IMG/VR virus record: IMGVR_UViG_3300012942_000104
Location: 1-30,695 of that record
Strand: one strand, 5' to 3'
Source: a virus
Taxonomy: Duplodnaviria; Caudoviricetes
DNA length: 30,695 nucleotides
Both the position numbers and the translations under genes were made by a program. Under the pieces are notes generated by a model. The model saw only the letters and a program-made list of their open reading frames with translations, did no database searches and had not been told where the DNA came from. Below, in pieces: positions 7,898-30,695 of the stretch (the stretch's first letter is position 1; every line of letters begins with the position of its first letter).

Positions 7898-8290
7898 TTA
7901 GGACTGGATAGTACGGGTAACGTCGCCGGTAATCTGCCACTCGGCGTCGCCGCTTCCGGCGTCCTTAACGGCCGTGCCCACAGAGTAGGAGCTGAGCACA
8001 CAGTTGCCAGTGTACTGCACCAGGCCGGTGCCAATACCCTGAGGCGAGTAGGTGAACGGAACGACCAGACGCTTCATGGCGAAAATGGCAGCGTCCATGG
8101 TCGGGTCAAAGTAACCCGAGCACTTGAAGGTACCGTCGTCCAGACCAGGAATGTAGGTCTTGGCAGTCTTACCGAGAGTCGTGGTCTCGGCAGCGTCAAT
8201 AGAGTCGTTGTAGGTTGCGTCGCTAAGGTAGTCTGACACGTCAACTGAGTTGACGGTCAGCTTGGCAACTGAACCGTGAGAGAAAGACAT
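7898..8290 (-). CDS. major tail (tube) protein
   Basis: 130 aa; ETTTLG...TYIPGLDDGT; directly upstream of the chaperone; preceded by its own -10 element. Confidence 0.8.
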   Translation of the reverse strand: MSFSHGSVAKLTVNSVDVSDYLSDATYNDSIDAAETTTLGKTAKTYIPGLDDGTFKCSGYFDPTMDAAIFAMKRLVVPFTYSPQGIGTGLVQYTGNCVLSSYSVGTAVKDAGSGDAEWQITGDVTRTIQS

Positions 8291-8338
8291 TTTAACCTCT
8301 TTCGGGGAGCTAGCTAGCTACGCCTATAGTACCTGAAA

Positions 8339-9064
8339 TCAGACGCCTCGGCTGTATGCCACGTGGAATGTAAATGATGGGGATGTCCCGGAAATGGTCC
8401 AGGCCAGTCGAATATACCGGTCAACATTGCCAGAAACGCTCTGGTACTGCGAACCTACGCCAGTTGCGGCATTGAAGGTAAGCAGATCAGCCCACGTGGT
8501 ATGGTCAGCAGAACTCTGGAGCTTCACAGTAATAGACGGGGTAGTGCCCGATACTGAGAAGATCTGGAGAGCTGCGCTGAGGCCCTTTGTGGTGGCCGCT
8601 AGGTCGTCCAGGTATGTTGCAAACCCTGTGGCGGTTTGTGCAGAAGTTGCTGCTGCACTTAGGCCACGGGGGAACCCTGTATTTGTCTGGAACTCCACAT
8701 CACAGGAGGCAGCATCCTTTACGGTGGTGCCGATGTCGTGTGCGGTTAGCTCCATAGTCCCGATGTACGCGGGCTCGCCAGCCAGGTCGGAGGCAGGTAG
8801 GTACGTAATCGGTACAGAGGCACGTCGAGTAAGAGCCTTGAGCTTATAGTCAAAGCTATTTGCATCGATGCTGTTGTGGTCCAGGAACCCGCTGCACTTA
8901 AAAGTGGCGTCTTCATTTCCTGGAATGTAGGTCTTGGCCGTCTTACCAAGCGTAGTGGTCTCAGCAGTGTCAATCGACCCGCCCATTGTCACATCACTAA
9001 AGAAGGGTGATGCGTCAAAACCATCTACGTAAATCTTGGCGATAGACCCATGGCTAAAAGCCAT
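8339..9064 (-). CDS. tail tube-like protein with extra C-terminal beta domain
   Basis: N-terminal ~130 aa is paralogous to 7898..8290 (FSHGS.AK, AETTTLGKTAKTYIPG, TFKCSG). Confidence 0.75.
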   Translation of the reverse strand: MAFSHGSIAKIYVDGFDASPFFSDVTMGGSIDTAETTTLGKTAKTYIPGNEDATFKCSGFLDHNSIDANSFDYKLKALTRRASVPITYLPASDLAGEPAYIGTMELTAHDIGTTVKDAASCDVEFQTNTGFPRGLSAAATSAQTATGFATYLDDLAATTKGLSAALQIFSVSGTTPSITVKLQSSADHTTWADLLTFNAATGVGSQYQSVSGNVDRYIRLAWTISGTSPSFTFHVAYSRGV

Positions 9065-12530: not shown

Positions 12531-12707
12531 GCTCACTCCTTCTTACTTGGAGATATGAAAGTGGATGGGTTTTACCCCACATACTGACAGGTCTCCGAGT
12601 AAGGTACCAGACCAAGCTCGAAGTGGAATCCGATCAACAGATTCTGCCCGTCGCACACTGTGGCGTTCGTAGAATAGAATACCACGCTTTGCAGCTAAGA
12701 ATACCAC

Positions 12708-12740
12708 AAAGAAAAACCCCGGCCACAAGGGCCGGGGTTG
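12708..12740 (-). terminator. intrinsic terminator after scaffold gene
   Basis: AACCCCGGCC-cttgt-GGCCGGGGTT followed by TTTCTTT. Confidence 0.8.
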
Positions 12741-12757
12741 GTTTTCTCAGGATAACA

Positions 12758-13426
12758 TCAGAGCTCGATATTACCGTTGTGATAGTGCTCCAGAATCTTC
12801 TCGGGAGACATGCTCTTCAGATCAGCGCGAGTGACCTTCCTCTGGCCATTCTGCTTGGGCGGGTTAGTCGTACCAGTATGCGGAGCCTGGGGCTGAGTAG
12901 CTGCTACCAGCCACGGGTGAGCCTTCTTAAGGTCACTCAGTACTTCCTTCATATTGGTAATCTTGCCGTCTGACCACTCAAGAGCATCATGGTCGATAAG
13001 CTTCACAGCAGCGTCGATATCGACAAGCTTCTCAGCATTTGCGGCCCGTGCAACCTGGAAATTCAGCTCAGCGGTCTTGGCCCGAGCCTCGGCAGTGGAA
13101 AAACCATTCCGAAGTTCGTCGAGTTCCTTCTTAGCCTTGTCCTCAGCAGAGAGCTGGGCATCTTCGAAGGCCTTTACGCGCTTCTGAAGGTCTTCTAGTT
13201 CCTTCTTAGCGGCCTGCTTCTCTGTGCGATGCTTTGCTGCCTCATCACGAAGAGCCTTGACCGTAGCCTCATCGAAAACCTTGGGTGCGTTATCAGCCTT
13301 CGGAGCGGAATCGCCCTGAGGGGCTGAACCACCATCGCCAGCGACTACGTGTGCGTCCTTGCTGGTGCCGACCACAGAAGGGTCAGAACCGGGGGCGGTA
13401 CCGTCGTTTGCGCCGTTGTCACTCAT
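12758..13426 (-). CDS. capsid scaffolding protein
   Basis: 222 aa coiled coil, LRDEAAKHR motif, between portal and capsid. Confidence 0.85.
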   Translation of the reverse strand: MSDNGANDGTAPGSDPSVVGTSKDAHVVAGDGGSAPQGDSAPKADNAPKVFDEATVKALRDEAAKHRTEKQAAKKELEDLQKRVKAFEDAQLSAEDKAKKELDELRNGFSTAEARAKTAELNFQVARAANAEKLVDIDAAVKLIDHDALEWSDGKITNMKEVLSDLKKAHPWLVAATQPQAPHTGTTNPPKQNGQRKVTRADLKSMSPEKILEHYHNGNIEL

Positions 13427-24678: not shown

Positions 24679-24749
24679 TGTTTCATTGGGTAGACTTTTC
24701 TGGGTATGGTGGACCATCGCCCGCACAGCAACCCCACCATCACAAAAGT

Positions 24750-25615
24750 TAATCGGAGTTCCTACTAAATCGTTGAGCCCAAAAAGAGTTCCAAGGCGCA
24801 CGCAACGATCGATCATCGATCAGGACCCACAAGGAATGCCAGCACGTGCAACAGTTGAAGGCTCAAAGGTTAGGAACTCTAAGTTTCGCCAGCAAACAGT
24901 TGAAACCTCAAACTGTGGAAGTCAAGAATCTCGACATCAAGCAATCCACAAAAAGAAATATCTAACTCGGAACAATCCACGCGATCAAGGAACTTCTTAA
25001 GGTCAAAAAGATTGAACCACGAACGATGTCACATACATCATTGACATGTATATGATAGACATACCTATACTACCTACCACATACCTATACCACTACACAT
25101 ACCACATCCATCACTACACATAGTAACTAACACAGCATGTAACACACTACACACAGTGATACATACAACACATACAGCCATAACTACACACAGTGATTGA
25201 TACTCTTAATCTAACGACCAATCAGAAACTTGACATATCGACAGCGGACTGATTACGCTAAGTAACAACACATCACTCTCAGTAACTGACTAGAACATGT
25301 TCTATTTCAAACCATCAAACCTATCGTGCAACCTATCGCCCAACCTATCAAGCCATAATCCCAGGTCAGACAAGGTTTCTTGGGCAATCTTGATAGGCTT
25401 GATGGTTTTTCTCTAAAAGTAGATAGGAATAGACAGTACATACACCTCACCGTACATAGAGCTTTCCGTCGCCTCAAACCATCTAACCTATCAAATGATC
25501 ATGGAAAAACCCCGTCTGACCTGGGCAAACGCCGCTTGATAGGTTGGTGATGCCTTCGCCGAAGCATCACAAAGCCGCAGGTCAGACAGGGTGCAAGAGG
25601 CATCACACCTATTCG
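24750..25615. repeat. non-coding repeat-rich region; candidate replication origin
   Basis: AT-rich and G-poor on the plus strand; repeated AACCTATC/GATAGG units in both orientations, plus ACATACCTATAC x2, ACTACACACAGTGAT x2 and AACAGTTGAAnnCTCAAA x2. Confidence 0.65.
25230..25259 (+). promoter_or_regulatory. sigma70/HrdB-type promoter without a downstream plus-strand gene
   Basis: TTGACA-N18-TACGCT. Confidence 0.6.
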
Positions 25616-25979: not shown

Positions 25980-26036
25980 CTTCTACTCGCCAGGCGAGAC
26001 TCTGTCCGTTTTTAGACAAAGTCTAAACTGAGAGCA

Positions 26037-26081
26037 AATAAAAAAGAGCCCCGCAGCGCCGGCGCCGAAGCGCCACGGGGC
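26037..26081 (-). terminator. intrinsic terminator
   Basis: GCCCCGTGGCGC...GCGCTGCGGGGC followed by TCTTTTTTATTT. Confidence 0.8.
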
Positions 26082-26091
26082 ATTATGGGTT

Positions 26092-26330
26092 CTAGTCGTC
26101 CTGCTGGCTCTTAGCCTTTTCCTCGCGCTCACGGCCTCTTCGTCAGTCAGCTCTCGAAAGCCGTCGTCCGTGCTGTAGCGATCCGGCCCGTTGCACGCGG
26201 TCACAGAGCCGTCATCCAACACCGTGAGCGCATTGCCGTCCTCATCCACCGCAGTCACACGGAATGCGAAATCGGTAGTCGGGGCCGGCCTGAACGACGA
26301 CCACTCGGATCACCACGTCAGCCCCGCTCA
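26092..26330 (-). pseudogene. small hypothetical gene apparently broken by two single-base indels
   Basis: Segments MSGADVVIRVVVVQAGP / TTDFAFRVTAVDEDG...LTDEEA / REREEKAKSQQDD* join across C-runs and end just before the terminator. Confidence 0.45.
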
Positions 26331-26578
26331 TCCGACACAGCCCCACAAGGCCGCCGACCTGCCCACAGCCACCCAAGCCATCCGATACCGCCCGCCGACC
26401 AGCATACCCGCCGAAAACGCACAGAATGGCACCGTAGCCGGGCGCAAACCCCACCTCCGGGCAACCACACCAGCGCCCCTCTGAAACAGCCGCAGAACGG
26501 CCTTTAAACAAGATCAACAAAACCAGCCCCCGCCGGCGACTATCTTGTATAGTACTAACCACCGTAGTAAATCAGCCC

Positions 26579-26611
26579 AAAAGAAAAGCACCCCCGCTGC
26601 CGCAGGGGTGC
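26579..26611 (-). terminator. intrinsic terminator
   Basis: GCACCCCTGC-ggca-GCGGGGGTGC followed by TTTTCTTTTT. Confidence 0.85.
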
Positions 26612-26640
26612 CGTTTCTCAGTCACGCCGCCGACTGGCCC

Positions 26641-27454: not shown

Positions 27455-28333
27455 TTACCCAATGTAAGAGGTCGCCAAACCTCGGGCATCCTCATCAGTC
27501 ATGAATAGAAACTGGGTCTCCTTAGCCACATTGTGAGAGACCAGGAATCCCCGGCCGCGCTGCGGCGGAGCGGGCTGGTAACGCCCAGCGTCTGGGACCA
27601 GCCAGCGCCACGCGCTAAGCGAGTAGTTCACCATAGCCTTGACGCCGAAGTTGTCCACGGCCTCCTGACCGCCGAGAGCCTGCCGGGTGGCGAGCTGAGC
27701 GGTAGCGATCATGTGCACGCGGCAGGCACGGCCGAGAAACAGAATGTCTCGGTAGGCGTCAATGGCGCCGTACTGCCCAGCAGGAACCTTTTTGTCCAGT
27801 TCCTTAATCTGAGAGAAGGTGGCGTTCATCTCTTCGGCCAAAACGACCAGGGTAGGCATTTCGAACTTCGGATTGTCGAAAGCGTCTTCCCCGTACTTCT
27901 CAATGATGGCCGTGCGCCGGTGAAGCTCATGACCGACCGAAACCAGCGCGTCCCCGATGTCGGGGAGCGTCTTAGCGTACGCCACGCGGGGGAGGTCATA
28001 GGCCCATCGGTGGCTGAACCGCTTATAGTCCAGCACAGTGGCCACGCCGCCGGCATGCAAGATCTGAGAGACAGCAGCGCGAGCCATTACGGATTTACCG
28101 CCGCCGGTTCCGCCGTTCAGGATGACATGGGGCGTTTCGGAGAGATCTATATTGATCGGCTCGCCCTCACCATTCACACCCATGTGGAAGTACTGCGGGT
28201 TGTCGTTTCGGATGTGGTCCGCCGCACCGTCAAGCCCGTGTACCTCGGGGAAACGGATAGCAGCGGCGGGGGTACCAATGCCCGCATAGACACTGGCGGC
28301 GGTTTCCTTGACTCCGGGAATGATGAGCGGCAT
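27455..28333 (-). CDS. FtsK/SpoIIIE (TraB-like) ATPase domain protein
   Basis: PHVILNGGTGGGKS (Walker A), LDYK, LVVLAEE (Walker B), GRACRVHMIATAQ; ATG at 28333 with GAGGAG RBS. Confidence 0.85.
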   Translation of the reverse strand: MPLIIPGVKETAASVYAGIGTPAAAIRFPEVHGLDGAADHIRNDNPQYFHMGVNGEGEPINIDLSETPHVILNGGTGGGKSVMARAAVSQILHAGGVATVLDYKRFSHRWAYDLPRVAYAKTLPDIGDALVSVGHELHRRTAIIEKYGEDAFDNPKFEMPTLVVLAEEMNATFSQIKELDKKVPAGQYGAIDAYRDILFLGRACRVHMIATAQLATRQALGGQEAVDNFGVKAMVNYSLSAWRWLVPDAGRYQPAPPQRGRGFLVSHNVAKETQFLFMTDEDARGLATSYIG

Positions 28334-29622: not shown

Positions 29623-29860
29623 CGGGGAACACATCCTCTCGGTAGAGGTGGAACTTCCGCCAGTGGTCGTTCATTCGAGTGTACGCCGCGTTCTCCGCCC
29701 GCTGAGCGGAGTTGAAGTACGAGAGCACCACCGGACTCGCTTCGTCCCGTAGAAGAGCCTGTGTGGCCTCTTCGTGGGCTGCCTGCCAGTCGGCGTGCAG
29801 CTCGCGGGCCTCTTGGATGTACCAAGCGTCAGGGTCGTGCGGTTCAAGCGGTGCGGACAT
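29615..29860 (-). CDS. hypothetical protein
   Basis: 81 aa; AGGGAG RBS. Confidence 0.7.
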   Translation of the reverse strand: MSAPLEPHDPDAWYIQEARELHADWQAAHEEATQALLRDEASPVVLSYFNSAQRAENAAYTRMNDHWRKFHLYREDVFPDA

Positions 29861-29871
29861 CTTAACTCCCT

Positions 29872-30261
29872 TTAGAACAGCGCCAGTTGGTTCGGGTCAA
29901 CTCGGGGCGGGACCGGTTCGGGGTAGAAGCACTCCCCGCCATCCCAATCGCCCGAGTCGTCAGCGATCAAATCCATGTCCCATCCATTCTCGCTCATCAG
30001 AACGGGGACCTCAGTCAGGCCGAGATCGATCGCTGCGGCCAGTCGGTGATGACCATCACCCATGTACCGATCGAAGCCTTCCATGTAGGACGTGAGCGGC
30101 CGCATAAAACCATTCTCGCGAAGGGCTTCCACAACCTTGGGGTAGTGCTCATCCTCGCGCTTCCAGCGGAGCACCTCCTTAAGGCGCACGCCCGCGCTGT
30201 CGCACGATCTCCAGTTCATCATCTCGTCCACCGGGACCCAGCGCACGACTCCGGACACCAT
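29872..30261 (-). CDS. ParB/Srx-like N-terminal domain protein
   Basis: LRENGFMRPL...DGHHRLAAAIDLGLTEVPV. Confidence 0.85.
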   Translation of the reverse strand: MVSGVVRWVPVDEMMNWRSCDSAGVRLKEVLRWKREDEHYPKVVEALRENGFMRPLTSYMEGFDRYMGDGHHRLAAAIDLGLTEVPVLMSENGWDMDLIADDSGDWDGGECFYPEPVPPRVDPNQLALF

Positions 30262-30425
30262 CAGAAAGACCGCCTCAGATTCGACCACACGGGGCGACCG
30301 GTGGCGTTCGCGACCATTACCATTCCCTCGGTGCGCTGAGCCGTGTGAACGGCCTCAGAGCGGGTCTGGTGGGTGCTTACCGTCTTCACGGTGCCGTTGG
30401 AAGCGGCACGCTTCACTTCGTACAT
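30261..30425 (-). CDS. hypothetical protein (54 aa)
   Basis: MYEVKRAASNG...; GAAGGAAG RBS; TGATG overlap with the ParB-like gene. Confidence 0.7.
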   Translation of the reverse strand: MYEVKRAASNGTVKTVSTHQTRSEAVHTAQRTEGMVMVANATGRPVWSNLRRSF

Positions 30426-30454
30426 GGCGACTTCCTTCGGATTGATGTGATGAG

Positions 30455-30620
30455 GACCGGCCCTAGCAGTGACGTAACCCCTCGGTCAAGAGGGCGTGTG
30501 CCGTACCGGGGTGTTAACCGGGTCAACGCTTCCATGCCTTCCGGTGGAGCCTGCGTTGCCCTACCCGCTATGCCTAGCGGGGCTCTGCTGTGCCGTTCAC
30601 CAGGTGACTAGCCCGGTGTG
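30455..30620 (-). ncRNA. candidate structured RNA (multibranch)
   Basis: Five hairpins, two with GNRA loops, and a long-range closing helix; no credible ORF. Confidence 0.5.
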
Positions 30621-30636
30621 CAGCGATTTAAGTCGG

Positions 30637-30695
30637 TGGCAATGACCGGAGTCGAACCGGCTTGGGGTGAGTTGCACTGACGCCCTGCGTCCTTA
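30637..30695 (-). tRNA. tRNA-like element, 3' part only (truncated by window end)
   Basis: T-arm GCCGG-TTCGACT-CCGGT, then 7-nt acceptor strand CATTGCC plus A; anticodon arm irregular; no encoded CCA. Confidence 0.5.

What the first reader, a model, noticed from the sequence alone, without database searches (positions are those of the whole stretch)
30455..30620. Candidate novel multibranch structured RNA upstream of the small-gene operon
Minus strand, 5' to 3': a hairpin CACCGGG-N7-CCTGGTG, then a domain closed by GGC..AGCAG / CTGCT...GCC. Inside are CCCGCTA-GGCA-TAGCGGG, CAACGC..TCCA.CC-GGAA-GG..TGGA.GCGTTG, CCGG-ttaacacc-CCGG and CCCTC-ttgacc-GAGGG. Two loops are GNRA tetraloops and G-U pairs favour this strand. 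It sits about 20 nt downstream of a tRNA-like element and about 25 nt before the first RBS. I do not recognise it as a known riboswitch or ribozyme. It may be an sRNA released by tRNA-type processing, or a cis-regulatory leader.
Basis: partly seen in the sequence, partly recalled or inferred. Interest (0 to 1): 0.7.

Follow-up and report, generated by a model that had tools for sequence, protein, structure and literature searches.

The report
Folded trailer after phage tRNA-like signal
In an uncultured soil phage, a non-coding stretch predicted to fold into three firm hairpins lies between a tRNA-shaped element and the first small gene; it is likely the folded front end left on the early message when host tRNA-cutting enzymes trim a long leader, rather than a proven new RNA class.

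Summary
Observation partly confirmed. Three helices hold in 6 of 6 folding contexts. GGCA is not a GNRA loop, and G-U pairs do not favour the minus strand. No Rfam hit, ribozyme core or distant homologue was found. The one sister strain shows no compensatory change. Context says more: the stretch is most of a 211-nt trailer between a T-arm/acceptor/A-C element and the first ribosome-binding site. Such T-arm elements stand in the same operon in 10 of 12 related loci. In mycobacteriophage L5 one lies at the published, unexplained 3' end of the abundant Pleft RNA. By that analogy the stable RNA would lie upstream, beyond the contig end, and this fold would be the processed 5' leader of the early mRNA. 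A discrete new RNA remains possible (about 0.2).

The parts
30637..30695 (-). 3' part of a tRNA-like element; its 5' part probably lies beyond the contig end. It has a bulged hairpin in place of a normal anticodon arm, then a T arm and an acceptor-type 3' strand
   Evidence: Sequence. ARAGORN finds no tRNA. Sister contigs run about 280 nt past the end
30645..30661 (-). Perfect T arm (5-bp stem, TTCGACT loop), the only perfect one found on either strand of the window
   Evidence: The sister strain turns its G-U pair into G-C. Best hit of model R2 in the window, T arm only, E 0.61
30636..30644 (-). Acceptor-type 3' strand (7 nt), then A and C in the tRNA 73-74 register, with no encoded CCA; predicted 3' cut region
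   Evidence: The same A-C register occurs in 25 of 29 T-arm elements examined. The cut is inferred
30598..30618 (-). Hairpin 1 (7 bp, 7-nt loop)
   Evidence: P 0.96-0.99. One pair is broken in the sister strain at 30600
30564..30581 (-). Hairpin A (7 bp, GGCA loop, not GNRA)
   Evidence: P 0.96-0.97; unchanged in the sister strain
30520..30561 (-). Arm B: 3+6+4+2 bp with an internal loop, a bulge and a GGAA tetraloop
   Evidence: P 0.90-0.99. Sister changes: one A-U to G-U, and one in a bulge
30475..30516 (-).
   Evidence: P 0.30-0.98. The sister strain has one A-U to G-U change and a 1-base deletion here
30458..30595 (-). Domain closed by GGC/GCC and AGCAG/CUGCU; context-dependent
   Evidence: P 0.25-0.99 and 0.33-0.98
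30423..30438 (-). Shine-Dalgarno-like GAAGGA and ATG of the first small gene
30261..30425 (-). 54-aa orphan gene, first of the small-gene operon
   Evidence: No Pfam or PHROG family. The only relative found is an identical protein on a 63,058-nt contig
29872..30261 (-). ParB-like nuclease-domain gene
   Evidence: PHROG matches; 43-50% identity to Microbacterium phage proteins in the 25 of 86 rows listed
27455..28333 (-). FtsK-like ATPase gene in the same operon, used to find related phages
   Evidence: PF01580; 43% identity to Streptomyces phage Dagobah

Best explanation
The stretch is non-coding DNA between a tRNA-like element and the first small gene, and it is likely the folded 5' leader left on an early mRNA after host tRNA-processing nucleases cut a longer leader transcript. 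Shown: the order T arm, acceptor-type strand, A-C, 211-nt trailer, ribosome-binding site, small-gene operon; three predicted firm hairpins; the same order in related phages. Inferred: a promoter beyond the contig end makes a long Pleft-type leader. RNase P would cut 5' of the tRNA-like element, and RNase Z or a related step would cut after the A at 30637, since no CCA is encoded. The hairpins would then shield the new 5' end from 5'-dependent decay and set the level of the early genes. The 4-way junction may form but need not be a conserved functional fold.
For: (1) 10 of 12 FtsK-like loci have a perfect T arm within up to 4.5 kb upstream: 14 sense, 0 antisense. Two duplicate loci and ten weak matches were left out before the count. 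(2) These elements pair by covariation. 5 of 6 acceptor pairs change on both sides, and 0 of 500 shuffles reach the score. The T-stem part was selected for pairing. (3) L5 has a tRNA-like element at 51,226-51,135 whose best fold is a cloverleaf, followed by a hairpin and gene 89. PMC5712189 puts the unexplained 3' end of the abundant 500-nt RNA at 51,140-51,190 and reports over 90% lower levels downstream. D29 keeps the element with two T-stem pairs swapped. (4) RNase P cuts acceptor-plus-T-arm substrates (PMC11143913). S. coelicolor has RNase J, and 53 of its 65 tRNA genes lack CCA (PMC4681348). (5) The sister strain's 1-base deletion argues against coding in any frame.
Against: The 5' acceptor strand is not visible; the best in-window partner pairs 6 of 7. 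The mini-tRNA model scores only the T arm (E 0.61). No cut site was observed, here or in L5, where the authors favour termination at that place. At 211 nt the trailer is longer than most (32-307 nt by a crude start finder; 3 of 29 had no start called), and protection alone does not need three arms. The sister strain breaks a pair in the first hairpin. The sharp ensemble hints at more than simple end protection.
Confidence: 0.5

Rival explanations
1. A discrete, conserved small RNA of a new class (4-way junction, about 165 nt), released by cutting after the tRNA-like element and trimming from the 3' side.
For: Three of the four substitutions in the stretch keep the fold. Related phages carry structured trailers in this position: the Dagobah type recurs in 3 genomes, with 12 of 37 predicted pairs changed on both sides, and L102 has a structured stretch between two T-arm elements.
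Against: No homologue. Divergence in the sister strain is 4 of 166, no lower than 18 of 697 in nearby small genes (p 1.0). No terminator-like site or second T arm marks a 3' end. The closing helix falls to P 0.33 in some contexts.
Confidence: 0.2
2. A translation switch: once the trailer's 5' end is freed, its first bases (30635-30630) pair with 30433-30428 beside the start codon and damp translation of the first gene.
For: P 0.89 for this helix in the cut trailer against 0.15 in the uncut sequence; 4 of 100 shuffles match it. Both strands are unchanged in the sister strain.
Against: The same helix falls to 0.05 and 0.00 when 25 more coding bases are included. Pairing of the ribosome-binding region is barely above shuffles (0.64 against 0.56; 8 of 60). 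It has only six base pairs, and no ligand or partner is known.
Confidence: 0.12
3. A near-neutral GC-rich spacer whose hairpins are largely chance.
For: z -2 is common in this genome (15 of 92). The opposite strand folds as well. The whole trailer has z -0.76. Conservation is not above background.
Against: Low ensemble diversity; a perfect 7-bp hairpin and a GNRA-capped arm; a position that related phages fill with hairpins.
Confidence: 0.15
4. A self-cleaving ribozyme or a degenerate tRNA/Y-RNA-like gene serving the upstream tRNA-like element.
For: It lies 3' of a tRNA-like end, as theta ribozymes do (PMC10879173). A D-arm-like reading of 30610-30592 and an SRP-helix-8-like arm can be seen by eye (motifs recalled).
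Against: No Rfam hit at E <= 10 other than a chance plus-strand snoRNA. A loose HDV descriptor gives 1 hit about 100 nt from the tRNA-like end, while 3 of 6 control windows also hit. No hammerhead GAAA and no Y-RNA GNCGAAN0-1G motif. The sister strain loses the D-loop-like GG.
Confidence: 0.03

Closest known systems
Pleft early leader of cluster A mycobacteriophages L5, D29, StarStuff (PMC5712189; passages and section 11 read)
   Same: Non-coding stretch at the head of a small-gene operon. In L5 and D29 I found the same order: tRNA-like element with A-C, hairpin, ribosome-binding site of the first gene.
   Different: No sequence likeness (model R1 on the L5 region, best E 0.12). The L5 trailer is about 50 nt with one hairpin; this one is 211 nt with three arms. 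The promoter and upstream leader are not in the window.
tRNA-like processing elements: RNase P model substrates (PMC11143913, passages); mascRNA/menRNA and organelle t-elements (recalled)
   Same: T arm stacked on an acceptor-type strand, with no usable anticodon arm. Phage relatives give weak mascRNA-menRNA hits (E 1-2).
   Different: The flagged stretch is the trailer behind such an element, not the element. Cleavage is untested.
C4 antisense RNA of phages P1/P7 (RNase P substrate per PMC11143913; mechanism recalled)
   Same: Phage early-leader RNA tied to tRNA-type processing.
   Different: No Rfam hit. The longest complement to any of 42 start regions in the window is 9 nt.
Theta (minimal HDV-like) ribozymes (PMC10879173, passages)
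   Same: Located 3' of a tRNA-like end in a phage.
   Different: No HDV-type fold starting within 5 nt of the tRNA-like end.
YrlA Y RNAs (PMC4201824, passages)
   Same: A T arm precedes a D-arm-like hairpin.
   Different: No acceptor stem-loop between them, no GNCGAAN0-1G motif, no YrlA hit.

Membership tests
Pleft-type processed early leader | Non-coding stretch directly ahead of the first small early gene | tested here: met
   'Early' is inferred from related phages
Pleft-type processed early leader | Early promoter about 500 nt upstream | not testable with these tools
   The contig ends at 30695. The 63,058-nt contig with the same proteins could not be fetched
Pleft-type processed early leader | Abundant stable RNA with processed ends | not testable with these tools
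   Needs RNA from infected cells
Actinophage tRNA-like element (upstream part) | Perfect T arm on the sense strand | tested here: met
Actinophage tRNA-like element (upstream part) | 12-bp acceptor-plus-T helix followed by A-C | tested here: inconclusive
   A-C register met. The 5' strand is probably off the contig; best in-window partner pairs 6 of 7
Actinophage mini-tRNA (short-linker type) | Full-length match to the family model | tested here: not met
   Model R2 matches the T arm only, 13.7 bits, E 0.61
Canonical tRNA or tmRNA | Cloverleaf with 7-nt anticodon loop, or G3-U70 with a tag frame | tested here: not met
   ARAGORN 0 genes; no Rfam hit; position 70 reads G
Theta/HDV-like ribozyme | G1 within 5 nt of the tRNA 3' end, with a nested double pseudoknot | tested here: not met
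   (my own loose descriptor)
Hammerhead, twister, pistol, hatchet ribozymes | Conserved catalytic core | tested here: not met
   No Rfam hit; no GAAA in the region (core motifs recalled)
YrlA Y RNA | GNCGAAN0-1G motif; T arm, acceptor stem-loop, D arm | tested here: not met
YrlA Y RNA | Ro60 gene within 4 kb | tested here: inconclusive
   None among the downstream proteins scanned; upstream DNA is missing
Bacterial SRP RNA | Helix 8 symmetric loop 3 bp from a GNRA loop | tested here: not met
   Similar letters occur but with about 5 extra bases on each side (motif recalled); no Rfam hit
Riboswitch | Conserved aptamer with covariation and an expression platform | tested here: inconclusive
   No Rfam hit; no homologues; the candidate sequestering helix is unstable across contexts

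The most novel reading that the evidence does not exclude
The stretch is a discrete, uncatalogued 4-way-junction RNA that the phage carries as a swappable module behind a tRNA-mimic cut site. Actinophages would use host tRNA nucleases to release a set of unrelated small RNAs from their early leaders; the Dagobah-type repeat RNA and the L102 RNA between two T arms would be other members.
Probability: 0.2. Interest if true: 0.62.

Novelty: new variant of a known kind. Interest (0 to 1): 0.3.

Why it matters
Alone, the stretch is one uncatalogued leader with no evidence of conservation, so its interest is modest. The arrangement matters more. tRNA-like elements head or punctuate small-gene early operons in many actinophages, and one sits at the unexplained 3' end of the most abundant, host-toxic RNA of phage L5. 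If host RNase P or RNase Z cut there, that would explain how these RNAs are delimited and how early genes are tuned. It can be tested directly in laboratory phages L5, D29 and Dagobah.

Tried and rejected
Homologue searches that found nothing: blastn against phage records (short chance hits only) and plasmids; exact patterns in viral contigs (0 hits; 3 hits, none scoring with R1); nhmmer on fetched loci; single-sequence model R1 on the window plus 70 loci, 7 loci unfiltered (best hit an unrelated repeat, 18 bits), 4 of 5 records (L010 not held) and 151 genomes of one family; DNA search of 401 genomes (10 short matches of 19-43 nt, of which 5 were rechecked with R1, none full length). Protein-guided searches with the ParB-like, FtsK-like and terminase proteins gave only distant phages. 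The metagenome scan covered 21 of 64 parts. Sequencing runs: no RNA holder listed; runs X5 and X7 laid nothing on the stretch. X1 may be the source sample, and X2, X3, X4 and X6 are one study. Relaxed ARAGORN gave noise. The 88-aa plus-strand ORF (30345-30611) and a short minus-strand frame were rejected because the sister strain's deletion shifts them. Apparent conservation against the 10%-diverged neighbour (p 0.002) was rejected, because the well-conserved block also covers 80 coding bases and matches the background elsewhere. An 8-nt repeat inside the stretch is at chance level by a rough hand estimate. The profile search of the FtsK-like protein gave no context and was not used. Literature searches listed no paper describing this RNA or tRNA-like elements in Pleft leaders. 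In one search, none of the 15 listed of 43 papers held the term 'tRNA-like'. The library lacks most subscription papers, and no supplements were read; those of PMC5712189 may bear on the L5 ends.

Full report
Setting. The window is a 30,695-nt fragment of a tailed phage; the held genome is the window itself. Structural genes fill the left part. A minus-strand run of small genes, with ParB-like, FtsK-like and HNH genes, starts at 30425. Its best named relatives are Microbacterium phages, Streptomyces phage Dagobah and a Streptomyces solincola contig, so an actinobacterial host is inferred. The best run holding it is a soil metagenome. A 63,058-nt contig carries the same proteins, and sister contigs run about 280 nt past 30695, so the contig end is not the genome end.

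Observation. Across six sequence contexts, three helices are firm: 30618-30598, 30581-30564 and 30561-30520 (P 0.90-0.99). The CCGG hairpin has P 0.00 in 6 of 6 contexts, the CCCUC hairpin 0.01-0.50 and the closing helix 0.33-0.98. Only one loop is GNRA. G-U pairs number 1 of 53 on the minus strand and 5 of 55 on the plus strand.

Against chance. Energy is unremarkable: z -2.03, plus strand -1.83, 15 of 92 windows at or below -2, and 9 of 67 GC-matched windows as stable. This measure was chosen after the fact, and it fades for the whole trailer (z -0.76; 10 of 60).

Variation. One sister strain, from one study, differs by 5 substitutions and 1 deletion in 30346-30695. One change turns a T-stem G-U into G-C. 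Within the flagged stretch two changes turn A-U into G-U, one lies in a bulge, and one breaks a C-G pair of the first hairpin. None is compensatory. The rate, 4 of 166, equals that of nearby small genes, 18 of 697. The deletion argues against coding in any frame. No more distant homologue was found in phage, plasmid, viral or genome collections. These searches are weak for a lone sequence.

Known families. Rfam gives nothing on the stretch and ARAGORN finds no gene. HDV/theta, hammerhead, Y-RNA and SRP tests fail. The theta and Y-RNA criteria come from passages of PMC10879173 and PMC4201824; the other motifs are recalled. No antisense target longer than 9 nt was found among 42 start regions.

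The upstream element. 30661-30645 is the only perfect T arm found in the window. Seven bases follow, then A-C, the register seen in 25 of 29 such elements. Following the FtsK-like gene to related phages showed that 10 of 12 loci carry perfect T arms upstream in the same operon, 14 sense and 0 antisense (two duplicates and ten weak matches left out). Short forms, with an acceptor stem, a 10-nt linker and a T arm, recur unannotated between small genes of Gordonia, Mycobacterium, Corynebacterium and Streptomyces phages. Their acceptor pairs covary. The window's element matches that model only at the T arm; it may be a long-insert form like those in L102 and L5, with its 5' strand off the contig. 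Trailers behind these elements run from 32 to 307 nt, mostly a hairpin and a ribosome-binding site. One long type is conserved in Dagobah and two uncultured phages and is unrelated to this one.

An experimental anchor. Earlier notes of this scan pointed to the Pleft leader, so I tested it. PMC5712189 (passages and section 11) reports an abundant 500-nt RNA in L5 ending at 51,140-51,190, with no evident terminator and over 90% lower levels downstream; the authors favour termination. L5 has a tRNA-like element at 51,226-51,135, whose best fold is a cloverleaf, followed by a hairpin and gene 89. D29 keeps the T arm with two pairs swapped and the same 3' strand. RNase P cuts acceptor-plus-T-arm substrates (PMC11143913, passages). 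S. coelicolor has RNase J and mostly CCA-less tRNA genes (PMC4681348, passages).

Reading. The window shows the same order as L5: tRNA-like element, hairpins, first small gene. The most likely reading (0.5) is that host tRNA nucleases cut a long leader here and the flagged fold is the new, protected 5' end of the early mRNA. The abundant RNA, if there is one, would lie upstream. Positions, folds and the shared layout are shown; promoter, cutting and protection are inferred. Rivals: a discrete new RNA (0.2), favoured by the long trailer and sharp ensemble but lacking covariation and a 3' boundary; a switch on the ribosome-binding site (0.12), whose helix swings from 0.89 to 0.00 with context; a near-neutral spacer (0.15); a ribozyme or degenerate tRNA (0.03).

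Verdict. A real non-coding, partly well-folded trailer in a recurring actinophage leader layout, with no evidence yet that its fold is a conserved new RNA. Novelty: new variant of a known kind. Interest 0.3; about 0.6 if it proves a discrete RNA. The tRNA-like elements themselves are the better lead. My searches listed no paper on them, but earlier unchecked notes of this scan describe similar elements.

Noticed in passing
L130:2635-2727 (L5 record 51,134-51,226, minus); L131 near D29 record 48,003: An unannotated cloverleaf-like element lies at the published, unexplained 3' end of the abundant Pleft RNA of L5. D29 keeps it with two T-stem pairs swapped. L5 has a second, short element before gene 88.
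   Followed up: partly
L001, L041-L046, L099-L107: Widespread unannotated mini-tRNA (acceptor stem, about 10-nt linker with GG, T arm, A-C), often 2-3 copies a genome, between small genes of actinophages; its pairs covary. In some copies the linker reads like the Y-RNA GNCGAAN0-1G motif of PMC4201824.
   Followed up: partly
L001:2376-2535, L101:7813-7965, L104:7690-7850: Conserved structured RNA directly upstream of the FtsK-like gene in Dagobah and two uncultured phages, with a hairpin motif repeated 2-3 times; z -3.4 in Dagobah, no Rfam hit there, 12 of 37 pairs changed on both sides. It may be a protein-binding leader.
   Followed up: partly
L102:3640-4420 and L099:4780-5340: Long non-coding leaders of 550-800 nt with one or two tRNA-like elements; in L102 about 130 structured bases lie between two T-arm elements.
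   Followed up: no
L010:5870-6260: About 400 nt of non-coding DNA ending in a tRNA-like gene that ARAGORN misses; no Rfam hit; a 60-nt piece matches Microbacterium phages Triscuit and Huwbert. Fold z only -0.6.
   Followed up: partly
L094:636-1077: GOLLD RNA (214 bits) containing a tRNA-like stretch, inside a tRNA array of about 44 genes in a 136-kb phage.
   Followed up: no
window 24700-25480: AT-rich non-coding stretch between divergent gene blocks, with a 21-nt direct repeat (25146, 25183), inverted repeats and two promoter-like sites; possibly an origin or packaging region.
   Followed up: no
window 25980-26620 and 12617-12782: Two terminator-like hairpins after the small-gene operon (26612, 26081). 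The strongest fold among 92 sampled windows (z -5.4) lies between the scaffold-like and capsid genes.
   Followed up: no
window 29651-29862 and 30085-30345: The sister strain replaces 210 bases covering the 81-aa gene with 180 others, and diverges about 10% in the ParB-like and 54-aa genes, against 2-3% elsewhere: a mosaic region.
   Followed up: no
window 7898-9064: Two adjacent tail-tube-like genes with similar N-termini, apparently paralogues (by eye).
   Followed up: no
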